From a virus (taxonomy: Duplodnaviria; Caudoviricetes): DNA of 36,861 nucleotides. Under the pieces are notes generated by a model. The model was not told the origin of the DNA and ran no database searches. It saw nothing but the letters and a program-made list of their open reading frames with translations. Of this stretch, positions 1 to 36,861 are shown one piece after another (the stretch's first letter is position 1; each line of letters starts with the position of its first letter). The stretch is taken from IMG/VR virus record IMGVR_UViG_3300030376_003776, positions 1 through 36,861 of that record; one strand, 5' to 3'. The translations under genes were made by a program, and so were the position numbers.

Positions 1-9
1 CGGCCCCCG
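1..9. repeat. 9-bp terminal direct repeat CGGCCCCCG (also 36853..36861); circular assembly overlap
   Basis: Identical sequence at both ends; joining restores the portal reading frame. Confidence 0.9.
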
Positions 10-21029: not shown

Positions 21030-21045
21030 TGATAATTTTGTGGGA
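21030..21045 (+). promoter_or_regulatory. Possible extended -10 promoter giving a leaderless transcript
   Basis: TG-A-TAATTT, 6 nt, then ATG 21045; no SD sequence. Confidence 0.35.
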
Positions 21046-22292
21046 TGCAATGGCGTAGAATGAGCAAAGCGTTGCTCGTTTTTTTCTATGTAGCAGCCTG
21101 GTTTGCACCCGCTGCAACCGCACTCGAAAGCGTTTCGCTCAGTGCAGACACGCCATACTTGGACTACGACATAACTTTAGACGGCGAAACGTTGCTGCAT
21201 GTCACATTCGACAGCAACACTGCTTGCCCCTTAGATTTCGCAACAACTATTGATCCTTGGCTGCGCCTAATTGATTCAGAAGGCAATATCGTGGCCGACG
21301 ATGACGACGGAAATCACAACGAACAAGACAACTGTTATGGGTCCAAGCTCCACCTTACTCCCGAGGCAGGAACTTATGTCCTACGATTTAGAACGTACCA
21401 AGAACAATCTGGAATTGATATTCCAGACGGCTCAGGAACAGTCACATGGTCAACCGACGGATACTCCCCACCAACAACGACGACTACGACCACAACGTCA
21501 TCTACTACTACGACGACGACTACAACGACGACTACGACTACTACCGCAGCACCCACTACGACGACGACTACGACAACGACGACAACGACGATCCCAGTAA
21601 CTACGACGACGGAGGCACCGCCATCTACCACTACGACCCCACCATCAACGACTACTCAGGCGCCCCCAACGACGACGACGACAACTACTTCGTCCACTTT
21701 GCCGCCCACCACGACCACTACGTTGCCACCGACGACAACGACCACGACGACGCTACCGCCGACGACTACGCTGCCACCGACGACATCAACGTCAACATCT
21801 ACTACTACGAGTACGACGACAACGACGACGGTCCCGCCGACGACAACTACCACGCTGCCGCCTACGACGACCCAACCGCCTACGACGACTACGACGACCA
21901 CGTTGCCGCCTACCACGACAACCTTGCTGCCCCCAACGACAACTCTTCTACCTCAACTTGAAGAAATAACTCCAGAAGTTATTGAAGAACTTGAATACGA
22001 AGAACTGTCTGACGAACAGATTGAAGAAGTTGCAGAAGCAATTCAAGATGCAGATGACGAAGTAAAAGAAGCGTTTGAAGAAGAAGTCAACATTTTCGCT
22101 GGCTCAACTGAGCAATACATTCCTTCAGGCTCCACAGTGTCCGTCGAAGACCGACGCGCCATCATTGCTGTTCAAAGCGCCAGCATCGCAGTAGCAGCCG
22201 CTACACGGCCTCTCCCACCCGCTCCCGTTCCCACCACATCAACAACTTCAGGAGGACCTTCCACACCTACTACTCGGAGAAAAAATGATTAA
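21045..22292 (+). CDS. Secreted mucin-like protein: signal peptide, PPC-like beta domain, Thr/Pro stalk, acidic region
   Basis: Hydrophobic N-terminus with AxA site; DPWLRLIDSEG..DDDDG..GTYVL; long poly-Thr tract. Confidence 0.75.
   Translation: MQWRRMSKALLVFFYVAAWFAPAATALESVSLSADTPYLDYDITLDGETLLHVTFDSNTACPLDFATTIDPWLRLIDSEGNIVADDDDGNHNEQDNCYGSKLHLTPEAGTYVLRFRTYQEQSGIDIPDGSGTVTWSTDGYSPPTTTTTTTTSSTTTTTTTTTTTTTTAAPTTTTTTTTTTTTIPVTTTTEAPPSTTTTPPSTTTQAPPTTTTTTTSSTLPPTTTTTLPPTTTTTTTLPPTTTLPPTTSTSTSTTTSTTTTTTVPPTTTTTLPPTTTQPPTTTTTTTLPPTTTTLLPPTTTLLPQLEEITPEVIEELEYEELSDEQIEEVAEAIQDADDEVKEAFEEEVNIFAGSTEQYIPSGSTVSVEDRRAIIAVQSASIAVAAATRPLPPAPVPTTSTTSGGPSTPTTRRKND
21470..21950 (+). repeat. Low-complexity ACN-codon tract encoding poly-Thr/LPPTTT
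   Basis: Visible ACG/ACT/ACA/ACC runs. Confidence 0.9.
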
Positions 22293-29531: not shown

Positions 29532-29651
29532 TTTTCTAATTCCCTTCTCTATGGTGATAGTGATCCCGGAACCGGGGGGGCCGGCCGGCGCATCACCGGC
29601 TACGGGCCTCACGCAGCAGCGCACCCCCGCGTTGCTGGCTGGTGCGGGACA

Positions 29652-29684
29652 CGAGAAAGCCCCGACCCGCTGGGGGCCGGGGCT
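29652..29684 (-). terminator. Intrinsic terminator of the 153-aa gene
   Basis: AGCCCCGGCCC-CCAGC-GGGTCGGGGCT then TTCTC, 7 nt after the stop. Confidence 0.65.
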
Positions 29685-29691
29685 GCTCGGG

Positions 29692-30153
29692 CTATCGGGC
29701 GTGGATGTCTTTGGTGAGGGACTTCCACTCGTCGTCATCCCGTGCGACGGTCGCCTCGTCGGTGCGCTGGCGGAACGGGAGCATCGCGAGGCGGAGCGGC
29801 TTCAGGAGGTTTCCTGCGGCGGCTCGGTTCGGAAGCTCTCGGAAGGCCACGACCCGCGTCTGCTCCTCGAACTGATCGGGGTCGAACGCGTCGGGGATGT
29901 TGACTCGGGCCGTCACGCCGAGGATTGCCTGGCTGCCGACCATGCTGAGGAAGTAGCCGTTGGTGTCCTTGACGCCGGGTTCGACGCTGCCGTGAGGCGG
30001 GACCTCCATGACCCAGGTGCCCGCCTGGCGGCCCTGCATCACCTTGCGGGCGATGCCGTCGCTGCCGTCCGGCAGGCTCACCATCCCCTCGTGGATTCGA
30101 TCCAGGGCGTCTGCGAGACGCTCCTCGGTTGACATGTTCACGATATCGGTCAT
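29692..30153 (-). CDS. Hypothetical protein (153 aa) encoded inside the left arm of the fold-back
   Basis: GAAAGGAG RBS, high-GC3 codons, downstream terminator; no family recognised. Confidence 0.8.
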   Translation of the reverse strand: MTDIVNMSTEERLADALDRIHEGMVSLPDGSDGIARKVMQGRQAGTWVMEVPPHGSVEPGVKDTNGYFLSMVGSQAILGVTARVNIPDAFDPDQFEEQTRVVAFRELPNRAAAGNLLKPLRLAMLPFRQRTDEATVARDDDEWKSLTKDIHAR

Positions 30154-30671
30154 CGTGTCTCCTTTCGTAGAGGGGGCCGCGCGGCCACGTCGAGCGTCGG
30201 GTCCCTCGACGGGACGCCGTGGCATCCGTCACATGGGCCGGTCGCGGATGAGGAGGAGGAGGTAGCCAATCGGCGGAACTGGCGACGACGCAAATCGGGT
30301 GGTGTGGCATACGTCACGCCGGGGCGACGGGCGGGGGGTCGAAGCGCCGGAACCAGAGCGCAGAGTCGTAACAAGCAAAAGTTTTTTGGGGACGTCCCAA
30401 CCCACGCCGAGGAACGAGGTGTGGTAAGGACGGGTCCAAAAAAGTTTTGTGCAGGGACGACGGCGCGATCTGGGCCGGTGCTACGATCCCCCCGACCGGC
30501 GACACGGTGTGATGGATGGCACGCCGCACGATTGGCGGCGGCGACAGGCCGACGATAGGCTGCCGACGACGACGAAGTAGCAGCCGGCGCATGTGATGGA
30601 TGGCATGGTGGCCCGTTGAGGGGCTCGACGCTCGACGTGGCAGGGTGGTCCCCTCTACGGAAGGGGGCACG

Positions 30672-31185
30672 AGGGCCGATATCGGGGACATGTCAGCCGA
30701 GGTGCGGCTCGCAGACGACCGGGATCTAATCCACCCCCCTCTCTTCTCTTTTATCTTTCATTTCTCGTGATAGTGGGCGCCCAACAGAGGGGATGGTGTG
30801 ACTGCGGGACGGTAGCGGCGGCAGCGACCGTGAGGGGATGCAGGGCAGACAGGTGGGCGGCTGGGGCTTGGAGGTTCTGCGTCACGGTAGTGGCGGACCC
30901 GGCGTCGAGGACGCCGACGGCTGCTTCCTCGGCGTGGTCGGTAGTCAGGCGGTCATCGTCGTGACGGCCAGAGGCAACGTCACCGTCGTGTTCGACACCG
31001 AGCAGGTCGAGGGGCAGGCGTGGGGCGTGGACTGCCGGGAGATTACGGACCGGGCCGACGCAGGGAGCCTCATGGAGCCGCTCCGTCTCGTGGTGCTCAC
31101 GGTCCGCCTGTGCACCGTCGAGGTGACAGGCGCGCGGGATGGCGTCGAGGGGATGTTCCTCACCGAAGACAGCCTCGCCCGATAG
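30672..31185 (+). pseudogene. Non-coding inverted mimic copy of the 153-aa gene
   Basis: About 80% identical; ATG>AGG, SD AGGAG>AGGGG, in-frame TGA at codon 26, 52-nt insertion, mostly non-synonymous changes. Confidence 0.85.
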
Positions 31186-31561
31186 TCCGACAGCCACGGT
31201 CCCCATCGGGTCGGGGCACTCGGGTCACGCAGGGTTTATCGCGCCCCCCCAAGAAAGCAACGACGTGATAGTGACGCTTAAACTTGAGAGCAGGCGCGAT
31301 AAACCCAAGCCAGCAACGCGGAAATGAAACAGTCCCCCACCCCAACCCTCCGGAAGTCTTGCTTTGTTTGACCGGTGCCGGTGGTTTAAGAAGGGTGGGG
31401 GGCATTCTTCTAGCGCTGCTGCGTGCTGCCTGTAGCCGGGGATGTGCCGTGGCCCCCCCGGTATAAATAATGCTAATCAGTGTGTTGGTAGTTTTGGTTT
31501 GTTGGGTTGCCTGTTGTTTGGTTTGGGGTCGGGTCACCCCTGGGTCCCTCCGCCAGTTTAG

Positions 31562-31730
31562 GTTGGTCGCCTCTAGCAAGTAGCTTTGGTTGCTAGGCCG
31601 CATTCCCGGTGGGACATGCGGCTGCTGCCCTTCTGACGGGCGATCTCTCGGCGGCTGACCGAGGCACAACAGTTGACCGTGTTGTGTGCGGTGTGCCACG
31701 ATTATGGCGTGGCTGTGAGGCTGCGTCAAC
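31562..31730 (+). ncRNA. Multi-branch structured element (six hairpins plus closing stem)
   Basis: Six back-to-back hairpins seen by eye; RNA versus ssDNA role unknown. Confidence 0.5.
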
Positions 31731-35156: not shown

Positions 35157-36861
35157 ATGATTACAGCCGAAGAAATCGTTGATCTTTATTACAGCCGAAA
35201 GAATGCTCATTCTGGCATTAAGGATCGAATGAGTCATATCCGTGACCATTACAACGGTGACGTTGTTGTGCCGCTGCCAGAAATTGATTCAACCGAATCG
35301 GCAGCAGTCGCTAACTTGTTGGCTCAGGGTTTGGACCAGACCGCAATGCGTGTGGCTTCTGTGCTGCCTGACATTGTGTGCCCGCCTTCGGATGATTCAT
35401 CTAAGCAGGCTCGCAAGCATTCACAGATTCGTCGCAAGGCCATGTTTGGTTGGTGGCAAAATTCTACGATGGATTTGCAGTTGGCAAAGCGTGCTCGCCA
35501 TCTAATCGGTTATTCACAGACAATTACGCAGATTCGGTTTGATCCAAAGAGCGGTGTGCCTACTTGGCACGCTCGTGATCCACTAACTGCTTATCCGTCG
35601 AACCTTCGTGGTGTAGACGACATGCGACCGCAAAACTGTGTGTTTGCTTATCTGCGTCCTATGCATTGGGTGCAGCAGTTTTATCCGCCCGCAGCTTTGC
35701 GTTTGACGGGTGGACCGTCGCACATGCAGCGCGAGCCAGATGAGACTGTCGAACTTATTGAATACGTTGATGACATGTGCACCGTTTTGGTTGCGCTTAA
35801 CCAGCCTAATCCAGACTCGGGTGTTGTTATTCAAGAACTAGAACGAGTCGAAAACCCGACTGGCCGTTGTCCTGTTGTGGTTGCTTCTCGTATTTCGTTG
35901 GCTGACTCTCGTGGACAGTTTGACGGCATTCTTGGCATGTACCAGCAGCAAGCAAAGTTGATGGCGCTTGAAGTGTTAGCTGTTCAGAAGGGCGTGTTCC
36001 CTGATACTTGGCTAGTCGGTAGTGCAGGTGAGCAGCCCAAGATTATTAATAACGCTAATGGTTTGACTGGCGAGATTGGTGTGGTGCGTGGCGGTTCGTT
36101 GCGAGACATGCAGATGCAGCCAGGGTTTATGACTAACCCGGCTATTGACCGGCTAGAACGTGCTCAGCGTTTGACTGCTGGTATTCCTGCCGAGTTTGGT
36201 GGCGAGTCTACGAGCAACATTCGTACTGGTCGTCGTGGCGACGCCGTGTTGTCTGCCGTAGTGGACTTTACGGTGCAGGAAACGCAGAAGGTTCTTGCGC
36301 GTTCTTTGGAAGAAGAGAATCGTTTGGCTATTGCTCAATGCAAAGCGTATGCAGGTAACAAGCCAAAGTCTTTCTATGTCAATATGGGGAAGACAAAGGG
36401 CAAGGTTGATTACACGCCTAACAAGCATTTTACGAGTGACGAAAATCATGTGTCGTACTCGCAGGCTGGTGCAGACATTAACAACCTTGTGATTGCTGGC
36501 GGTCAGCGTTTGGCGATGGGCACTATGTCAAAGGAAGCGTTTATGCGGATTGATCCGCTTGTAGAGGATGTTGAGAAGGAGCGCGACGCTGTAGTAGCTG
36601 AGCAGTTGCAACAGTCGTTGTTGGCTGGTTTGCAACAGCAGGCTGCACAGGGTGCGTTGCCTCCTGCTGATTTGGCTCGGATTATGGAGCTAGTTAAGAA
36701 CGATAATCTTGAGTTGCCTGACGCTGTTGCCAAGGTGCAGCGTGAAGCGCAGGAACGTCAAGCTGAGCAAGTGGAGGCAACTGCGCCTGAAGCGCAGCCT
36801 GGTATTGCTCAGCCGGGGGCTGGTGCTGAATCAGGCGGGGGCGCGCCTGCACCGGCCCCCG
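35157..36861 (+). CDS. Portal protein (578 aa including wrap to 41; absent from ORF track)
   Basis: MITAEEIVDLYYSR..VANLLAQGLDQTAMRVAS open to the end of the window; follows terL; Gln/Ala/Pro-rich tail. Confidence 0.85.
   Translation, partial: MITAEEIVDLYYSRKNAHSGIKDRMSHIRDHYNGDVVVPLPEIDSTESAAVANLLAQGLDQTAMRVASVLPDIVCPPSDDSSKQARKHSQIRRKAMFGWWQNSTMDLQLAKRARHLIGYSQTITQIRFDPKSGVPTWHARDPLTAYPSNLRGVDDMRPQNCVFAYLRPMHWVQQFYPPAALRLTGGPSHMQREPDETVELIEYVDDMCTVLVALNQPNPDSGVVIQELERVENPTGRCPVVVASRISLADSRGQFDGILGMYQQQAKLMALEVLAVQKGVFPDTWLVGSAGEQPKIINNANGLTGEIGVVRGGSLRDMQMQPGFMTNPAIDRLERAQRLTAGIPAEFGGESTSNIRTGRRGDAVLSAVVDFTVQETQKVLARSLEEENRLAIAQCKAYAGNKPKSFYVNMGKTKGKVDYTPNKHFTSDENHVSYSQAGADINNLVIAGGQRLAMGTMSKEAFMRIDPLVEDVEKERDAVVAEQLQQSLLAGLQQQAAQGALPPADLARIMELVKNDNLELPDAVAKVQREAQERQAEQVEATAPEAQPGIAQPGAGAESGGGAPAPAP

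What the first reader, a model, noticed from the sequence alone, without database searches (positions are those of the whole stretch)
30438..30494. Promoter element present only on the mimic arm: candidate ssDNA-activated (Frpo-like) promoter
Seen: near the apex the right arm reads GG-TG-C-TACGAT (extended -10, 30479-87), with an AAAAAAGTTTTG tract (30438-49) at UP-element distance. The gene's own sense strand reads GG-CG-C-TTCGAC at the paired position, which is not a -10. Known: sigma70-family factors read the -10 on the non-template strand, and Frpo works only when folded from ssDNA. Inference: in the hairpin the right arm provides the non-template -10, partly mismatched, and the left arm is the template. 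The 153-aa gene or a replication primer would then be made only while the + strand is single-stranded. In dsDNA the same promoter would only transcribe the dead copy. No clear -35 is visible.
Basis: inference. Interest (0 to 1): 0.85.

Follow-up and report, generated by a model that had tools for sequence, protein, structure and literature searches.

The report
Fold-back DNA promoter in marine actinophage

Summary
The letters are as described. TG-C-TACGAT (30479-87) lies on the dead arm of a 1.86-kb fold-back whose mismatches suit only the + strand and fit DNA better than RNA (62 G·A vs 3 C·T). In the predicted fold, its -11A and -7T, the two bases sigma captures, are unpaired. The A-tract is on both arms. 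A second dead-arm-only -10, TTGGCG-18-TAGGCT (30532-61), has the same A·A mismatch at -11 and lies in a stretch unchanged in 4 of 4 relative runs. A distant phage (L009) has a weaker dead-arm-only GTGACA-17-TATGGA. So the idea survives with a different main site; TACGAT looks like a lineage-specific duplicate. No single-stranded stage and no transcript is shown, and a conserved ordinary promoter at 31729 could reach the gene from dsDNA. The scan noted gene-length fold-backs before on other DNA. Verdict: a likely Frpo-like promoter in a dsDNA phage, about 50%.

The parts
29586..31449 (+). Whole imperfect fold-back; stable mainly on the + strand
   Evidence: 580 of 738 paired columns Watson-Crick; G·T 66 vs A·C 4, G·A 62 vs C·T 3; DNA MFE -729 (+) vs -510 (-)
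29692..30153 (-). 153-aa ORF (P0001) with AAGGAG ribosome site at 30159-64; the + strand is its template; function not assigned
30672..31185 (+). Mimic (dead) copy of the gene: start codon and ribosome site altered, two stops, 52-nt insertion
30479..30487 (+). The finding: extended -10 TG-C-TACGAT, mimic arm only; -11A in an A·A mismatch, -7T bulged; predicted start 30494, templated by 30332 (G); lineage-specific
   Evidence: segment absent from relatives
30339..30348 (-). Paired coding-arm position of the distal -10 (TTCGA; no -11A)
30438..30449 (+). A/T tract at UP-element distance; partner tract on the left arm at 30376-30387, so present on both arms
30532..30561 (+). Second mimic-only promoter candidate TTGGCG-18-TAGGCT (CGA before the -10); A30557 faces A30268; -10 unchanged in relatives
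30264..30269 (-). Paired coding-arm position of the proximal -10 (TTGGCT; no -11A)
30565..30579 (+). Tandem G·A ladder (GAC repeats facing GAG repeats at 30246-60) directly after TAGGCT, over the predicted start site
30296..30534 (+). Lineage-specific apex module, itself a + strand stem; carries a second copy of the leader box; replaced by a 576-nt segment in relatives
30508..30521 (+). Box copy 1 TGTGATGGATGGCA (left partner 30304-17), 26 nt after TACGAT
30592..30605 (+). Box copy 2 (left partner 30219-32), 36 nt after TAGGCT; box and its G·G mismatch also in L009
30408..30419 (+). Apex cap CGAGGAACGAGG (GAA loop over G·A pairs, inferred) at the dyad centre; the same 12 letters cap L009
30733..30784 (+). 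52-nt loop present only in the mimic arm; a 52-nt loop lies at nearly the same place in L009
31701..31729 (-). Ordinary leftward promoter match TTGACG-17-CATAAT pointing into the element; same hexamers in L009; rival dsDNA route to the gene
31439..31449 (+). Clade-wide motif upstream of the terminase that forms the right foot of the fold-back

Best explanation
The mimic arm likely works as the non-template strand of a host sigma-A promoter that would exist for the gene only when the + strand is single and folds back. Shown: the gene and its leader pair with a dead copy; the pairing tolerates its mismatches only on the + strand; the only TANNNT boxes of the paired leader are on the dead arm, each with -11A facing an A. 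Inferred: in the fold, polymerase captures the pre-unpaired -11A (and -7T for TACGAT) and copies the left arm into mRNA or a primer; in dsDNA the coding arm has TT instead of TA and stays silent at these sites. TAGGCT is the conserved site; TACGAT is likely an upstream duplicate gained in this lineage. The single-stranded stage is not identified; candidates are end resection by the phage exonuclease with its annealing protein and SSB, or strand displacement in replication.
For: Strand asymmetry: G·T 66 vs A·C 4, G·A 62 vs C·T 3, G·G 10 vs C·C 0; leader fold -214.7 (+, z -19) vs -136.5 (-, z -6.7) kcal/mol. DNA rather than RNA: 48 of 127 isolated mismatches are G·A, worth -1.9 kcal/mol under DNA and -0.1 under RNA parameters. 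Substitutions between strains are balanced (X4: G>A 20, A>G 13, C>T 18, T>C 17), so the bias is not drift towards G; two compensatory pairs seen (30197/30628, 30204/30621). -11A faces A in 2 of 2 paired TANNNT (p 0.0008); no TANNNT in the coding arm's leader. 30535-30615 has 0 changes in X3, X4, X12 and 30542-30615 has 0 in X10, against 44 in 743 over the right arm of X4 (P about 0.007). L009 (36% protein identity): best promoter match is on the mimic arm (GTGACA-17-TATGGA, 8 of 12, vs at most 5 of 12 for TA-starting hexamers on the coding arm), with positions -11 and -7 unpaired. Sigma captures A-11 and T-7 of the non-template strand (PMC10979975, passages); TANNNT without a fixed -35 is the mycobacterial norm (PMC3898074, passages). 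WhiB, exonuclease, annealing protein and SSB genes are next door.
Against: TACGAT and the A-tract are not in the alignable part of any relative. The L009 candidate lacks -7T at the canonical place, is not at the same position as TAGGCT, and A·A is not enriched at TA steps in L009 (1 of 10 vs 5 of 107, p 0.42); its one paired TANNNT (5087, in the gene copy) has a normally paired A. L009's gene arms are less strand-biased (G·A 20, G·T 17, A·C 12, C·T 6), although its centre is strongly so. A hairpin-templated RNA from TAGGCT would start in a pyrimidine run, while 85% of mycobacterial starts are purines; on dsDNA the same box has a purine start into the dead copy. The left-arm A30268 was not directly read in relatives: the 71-nt left piece has 2 unlisted differences. 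The relatives share identical junctions and count as about one comparison. The motif statistics are post hoc. A conserved leftward promoter at 31729 could supply the gene from dsDNA. A tailed dsDNA phage has no obvious single-stranded stage.
Confidence: 0.5

Rival explanations
1. The fold-back is a real ssDNA structure but serves replication, end processing or packaging; the -10 matches are by-products and the gene is read from the ordinary leftward promoter at 31729.
For: The right foot is a clade-wide motif upstream of the terminase (18 of 56 loci, many too short to hold it); cumulative GC skew turns here; F-plasmid ssp2 acts as a replication roadblock (10.64898/2026.01.09.698686, passages); TGnTAnnnT alone is within chance; the three candidate sites are not at one position.
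Against: Does not explain why the rare A·A mismatch sits at -11 in both TANNNT boxes, nor the unchanged 81 nt around TAGGCT; the skew turn also follows the switch of coding strand.
Confidence: 0.22
2. The boxes are ordinary dsDNA promoters for a mimic-arm RNA. The long leftward transcript from 31729 would fold on itself and hide the ribosome site; the mimic RNA would pair with its 5' half and free the mRNA (an anti-antisense switch).
For: Both boxes have purine starts on the + strand; the - strand RNA still folds strongly (-278 kcal/mol, z -10); the leftward promoter is conserved in both element-bearing phages; called ORFs from mimic arms exist in relatives (P0010, P0012).
Against: Needs no + strand fold, so it leaves unexplained the G·A/G·T bias and L009's ladder of 274 G·A pairs in about 495 columns, which would be C·U in that RNA. 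The open 115-codon mimic frame is within chance (P 0.21).
Confidence: 0.13
3. The folding molecule is a 1.9-kb + strand RNA made from a rightward promoter at the left foot (TATGGT, 29550-55; TATCGT in L009).
For: The -10-like hexamer and the following GATAGTG are conserved at the left boundary; + strand RNA folds well (-378 kcal/mol); tandem G·A pairs are also stable in RNA (recalled).
Against: Isolated G·A mismatches are nearly as common as G·T (48 vs 58) although they gain nothing in RNA; GNA-loop caps are far more stable in DNA than RNA (PMC13037366, passages, for GCGNAGC, a different closing pair); no Rfam match.
Confidence: 0.15

Closest known systems
Frpo/ssi single-stranded promoters of F, ColIb-P9 and pESBL, classes 1-3 (PMC9849209, PMC11541004, PMC12672017; passages read)
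   Same: Strand-specific stem-loop in which -10/-35-like boxes would be read by host polymerase; gene templated by the folding strand; possible primer role.
   Different: Tailed dsDNA actinophage, not a plasmid leading region; stem of about 750 bp that includes the whole gene paired with a dead copy; -10 present on one arm only with -11A in an A·A mismatch; tandem G·A ladder of variable length; no known single-stranded stage; no activity measured.
Phage N4 virion-RNA-polymerase hairpin promoters (PMC4496689, search listing only; details recalled)
   Same: Phage promoter that needs a DNA hairpin; GNA-type loop at the apex.
   Different: N4 uses a short hairpin and its own polymerase; here the boxes are host sigma-type, 70-150 nt from the apex, and no RNA polymerase family was found by Pfam in the 36 ORFs scanned.
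Gene-length fold-backs noted earlier in this scan (e1-5883015, e1-9759645, e1-7405935; unchecked AI notes)
   Same: Gene paired with a decayed mirror copy; mismatches spare one strand.
   Different: Other genomes and genes; their short notes do not mention a mimic-only -10 with an A·A mismatch or a G·A ladder.

Membership tests
Frpo/ssi ssDNA promoters | One strand folds into a stable long stem-loop | tested here: met
   + strand z -19, - strand z -6.7; prediction only
Frpo/ssi ssDNA promoters | The stem reconstitutes -10 and -35 boxes | tested here: inconclusive
   TACGAT: extended -10, no -35. TAGGCT: TTGGCG at 18 nt (P 0.03 in leader, 0.09 in arm); X12 reads TTT before 30535, giving TTGCGG at 17 nt
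Frpo/ssi ssDNA promoters | Downstream gene is templated by the folding strand, 5' of the box-bearing arm | tested here: met
   ORF 30153-29692 on the - strand; boxes on the 3' arm of the + strand; same in L009
Frpo/ssi ssDNA promoters | Lies in the leading region of a conjugative element that enters as ssDNA | tested here: not met
   Virus record with terminase, capsid and WhiB genes
Frpo/ssi ssDNA promoters | Active on ssDNA, inactive on dsDNA | not testable with these tools
   needs in vitro transcription or 5' mapping
Frpo/ssi ssDNA promoters | Sequence likeness to Frpo1/2 or ssi1-3 | not tested
   no Frpo sequence was fetched; classes 2 and 3 also lack such likeness
Actinobacterial sigma-A promoter | TANNNT -10, often after TGN or CGN, no fixed -35 | tested here: met
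   TGC-TACGAT and CGA-TAGGCT against PMC3898074; L009's TATGGA does not meet it
   segment replaced in X3, X4, X5; same junctions in X10, X12; replacement read only at its ends
N4-type hairpin promoters | Phage-encoded virion RNA polymerase | tested here: inconclusive
   no polymerase family by Pfam; the 1914-aa and 897-aa ORFs had no hit and were not searched further

The most novel reading that the evidence does not exclude
A class of phage gene cassettes that sense their own strand state: a dead mirror copy rebuilds a full double-stranded transcription unit, promoter and gene, from one strand, with the -10 written only on the mirror arm and its two sigma-captured bases left unpaired by design, and a tandem G·A ladder of tunable length that lets only that strand fold. 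A dsDNA phage would thus express a gene only when its genome end is resected or displaced, for example under nuclease attack.
Probability: 0.35. Interest if true: 0.9.

Novelty: new variant of a known kind. Interest (0 to 1): 0.72.

Why it matters
Host-polymerase ssDNA promoters are described for conjugative plasmids, where DNA enters as one strand. My searches listed none in a tailed dsDNA phage and none whose stem includes the gene. If right, such phages have a regulated single-stranded stage and a gene wired to it, and the mismatch at -11 gives a simple sequence rule to find such promoters in the other gene-length fold-backs of this scan. The claim is directly testable with two synthetic templates and host polymerase.

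Tried and rejected
Protein function: no Pfam, PHROGs or PDB-sequence hit for P0001; no ESM Atlas hit; model pLDDT 78 with no Foldseek match at E 0.001 in PDB or BFVD; the wide VIA search never ran. More members: viral contigs gave only L009's contig (L058 and L059 are chance matches in coding DNA); metagenome contigs gave one piece identical to the window that stops near 30460; none in genome contigs or GenBank phages. Long inverted repeat in 1 of 56 terminase loci by blastn and 1 of 30 by a G·A-aware alignment; only 21 of these have 5 kb upstream. No RNA holder listed, which says nothing on expression. X2 has no cover at 30366-31091, a hole that proves nothing. One 36-nt piece in X12 lacks TAGG but has unlike flanks on both sides and five gaps; I treat it as another organism. 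Diversity-generating retroelement: rejected, changes are on both arms and not adenine-specific. Live paralogue on the right arm: start, ribosome site and two codons are broken; open tail within chance. TG-G-CATGGT in box 2 is positionally conserved but L009's coding arm has CACAGT there, so it is not mimic-only. The box resembles GTG-N8-CAC of CRP (consensus recalled); spacing to the -10 (-52.5, -43.5) fits no canonical class, left open. An A-tract-plus-box pattern gave 0 of 1000 shuffles but was tailored after the fact and is not used. PMC9209446 passages were not useful.

Full report
Setting. The window is a whole 36,861-nt virus record with terminase, capsid, WhiB, exonuclease, single-strand annealing and SSB genes, so an actinophage by inference; runs that hold the stretch are marine or estuarine. 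At the switch between leftward and rightward genes lies a GC-rich inverted repeat, 29586-31449. Its left arm carries a 153-aa ORF on the - strand; its right arm is a dead copy with altered start codon and ribosome site, stops and a 52-nt insertion.

The fold is real and strand-specific. Of 738 paired columns 580 are Watson-Crick; the rest are G·T 66, G·A 62, G·G 10, T·T 9, A·C 4, A·A 4, C·T 3. On the - strand the first three become C·A, C·T and C·C, so the leader folds at -214.7 (+) against -136.5 (-) kcal/mol. Isolated G·A mismatches (48 of 127) gain 1.9 kcal/mol under DNA and 0.1 under RNA parameters, which favours DNA. Changes between strains are balanced in direction and include two compensatory pairs.

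The observation. All letters and coordinates are right. In the fold A30483 (-11) faces A30342 and T30487 (-7) is bulged. These are the two non-template bases that sigma flips and captures (PMC10979975, passages). With 21% of the leader unpaired, exactly this pattern has P about 0.017, post hoc. The motif alone is not rare (P 0.08-0.15), and the A-tract is present on both arms.

A second site. The paired mimic arm has only two TANNNT: TACGAT and TAGGCT (30556-61); a third lies in the unpaired loop. The coding arm reads TTCGA and TTGGCT there and has no TANNNT in its leader. Both have -11A facing A: 2 of 2 against 2 of 123 other paired A (p 0.0008), or 2 of 45 in the leader alone (p 0.006). TAGGCT follows CGA and has TTGGCG 18 nt upstream; TGN and CGN prefixes and a loose -35 are typical of mycobacterial promoters (PMC3898074, passages). 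Each -10 is followed by a copy of one block (CCGGCG..TGTGATGGATGGCA), so I infer that the two are duplicates that kept T-A-x-G-x-T and the A·A mismatch while the middle letters changed on both arms; that alignment is weak at the -10 itself. A third TA/TT mismatch lies at 30425-30 (TAAGGA), without -7T.

Close relatives. I laid 6 of the 20 listed runs. X2 (same study as the likely source) matches the window with holes. In X3, X4 and X5 (three studies, arms about 95% alike) 30296-30534 is skipped and 576 other letters stand in its place. X10 leaves the window at 30295 into GAG repeats, and X12 joins at 30535 from GAC/GAG repeats. So TACGAT and the A-tract are not conserved in alignable form; only the ends of the replacement were seen. 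By contrast 30535-30615 has no change in X3, X4, X12, nor 30542-30615 in X10, where 44 of 743 positions differ over X4's right arm (P about 0.007). The left piece 30225-30295 has 2 differences in each of X3, X4, X10 that the tool did not list, probably near a piece end, so A30268 is likely but not shown to be kept. These strains share junctions and amount to about one comparison.

A distant relative. L009 (terminase 89%, cargo protein 36% identical) has the same plan: live gene left, dead copy right, 52-nt loop, the box, and the same 12-letter cap at the dyad centre (the 12-mer also occurs in L007 and L039 without an element). Its centre is a nearly gap-free ladder with 274 G·A pairs in about 495 columns, possible only on the + strand. 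It has no TACGAT, TAGGCT or TGnTAnnnT inside the element. Its best promoter match is again on the mimic arm, GTGACA-17-TATGGA(T), where the coding arm reads GTGTCA and TTTGG-T, with -11 and -7 unpaired. Against: no -7T in register, a different position, no enrichment of A·A at TA steps in L009 (p 0.42), and weaker strand bias in its gene arms. The element is patchy: 1 of 56 terminase loci, 21 of which have 5 kb upstream.

Mechanism. Shown: pairing, strand bias, box placement, conservation pattern. Inferred: when the + strand is single it folds; host sigma-A polymerase binds a mimic-arm -10 with -11A already unpaired and copies the left arm, giving RNA from about 30257 (leader 104 nt) or, in this lineage, 30332 (leader 179 nt). 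In dsDNA the same boxes could only fire into the dead copy. The proximal start would fall on pyrimidines, which is unfavourable. How the strand becomes single is unknown. The right foot of the fold pairs a motif found upstream of the terminase in 18 of 56 loci (one match, L026, looks spurious); if that is the genome end, 5'-3' resection would leave exactly this strand, but termini were not mapped. A conserved leftward TTGACG-17-CATAAT at 31729 offers a dsDNA route, although its RNA would carry its own antisense arm.

Known systems. It would work like Frpo/ssi promoters, which fold from ssDNA, rebuild -10/-35 boxes, are reported inactive on dsDNA and may prime replication (passages of PMC9849209; PMC11541004; PMC12672017; 10.64898/2026.01.09.698686; Masai and Arai 1997 not read). 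It is not a member: no conjugative leading region, and a gene-long stem. Searches listed no such promoter in a tailed phage; the library lacks most subscription papers, and supplements with Frpo structures were not read, so an A·A mismatch at -11 may be known there. Earlier notes of this scan describe gene-length fold-backs in other phages and a conjugative element; I did not test them.

Verdict. Observation confirmed; interpretation partly supported. TACGAT fails the conservation test but is well built within its lineage; TAGGCT is the better site; the ssDNA-promoter reading stands at about 50%.

Noticed in passing
L009 3520-4511: About 495-column in-register ladder with 274 G·A pairs (GAG repeats facing GAC repeats, with self-pairing GAGTGA, GAGCGA, GAATGA, GATTGA units); close relatives of the window seem to carry a 576-nt version, the window only 15 nt of it.
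   Followed up: partly
window 31439-31480 and 18 terminase loci: Clade-wide motif GG(G/T)ATGTGCCG followed by ATGCTA, 1.3-2 kb before the terminase; often in a local palindrome, but paired with the far foot of the fold-back in the window and L009. Candidate genome end or late promoter.
   Followed up: partly
window 29169, 29556, 30769, 31181, 31267; L003, L006, L011, L012, L013, L017: GATAGT recurs on the + strand only, often in pairs about 32 nt apart, upstream of leftward genes; candidate operator. Two copies sit in loops of the mimic arm.
   Followed up: partly
window 30733-30784; L009 4612-4663: Both mimic arms carry a 52-nt pyrimidine-rich loop at nearly the same place, each with a TATCYT hexamer.
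   Followed up: no
L017, L018, L023, L036 upstream of the terminase motif: AAAATTTTTT-type tracts next to GATAGT resemble the window's A-tract, so the tract may be a clade motif and not a UP element of this promoter.
   Followed up: no
window 29586-31449: G·T, G·G and T·T mismatches are the substrates of actinobacterial NucS/EndoMS (recalled); the folded strand might be cut or processed by it.
   Followed up: no
L011 1900-4500: Region packed with CTCGAG palindromes and repeated leftward promoter-like blocks (GTGATCGTGG pairs, TACAAT/TACATT).
   Followed up: no
window 21045-22292: ORF with a long Thr-rich low-complexity tract (ACG/ACT repeats).
   Followed up: no
window 1-9 and 36853-36861: The record begins and ends with the same 9 letters; it may be circular, though IMG/VR classes it as linear.
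   Followed up: no
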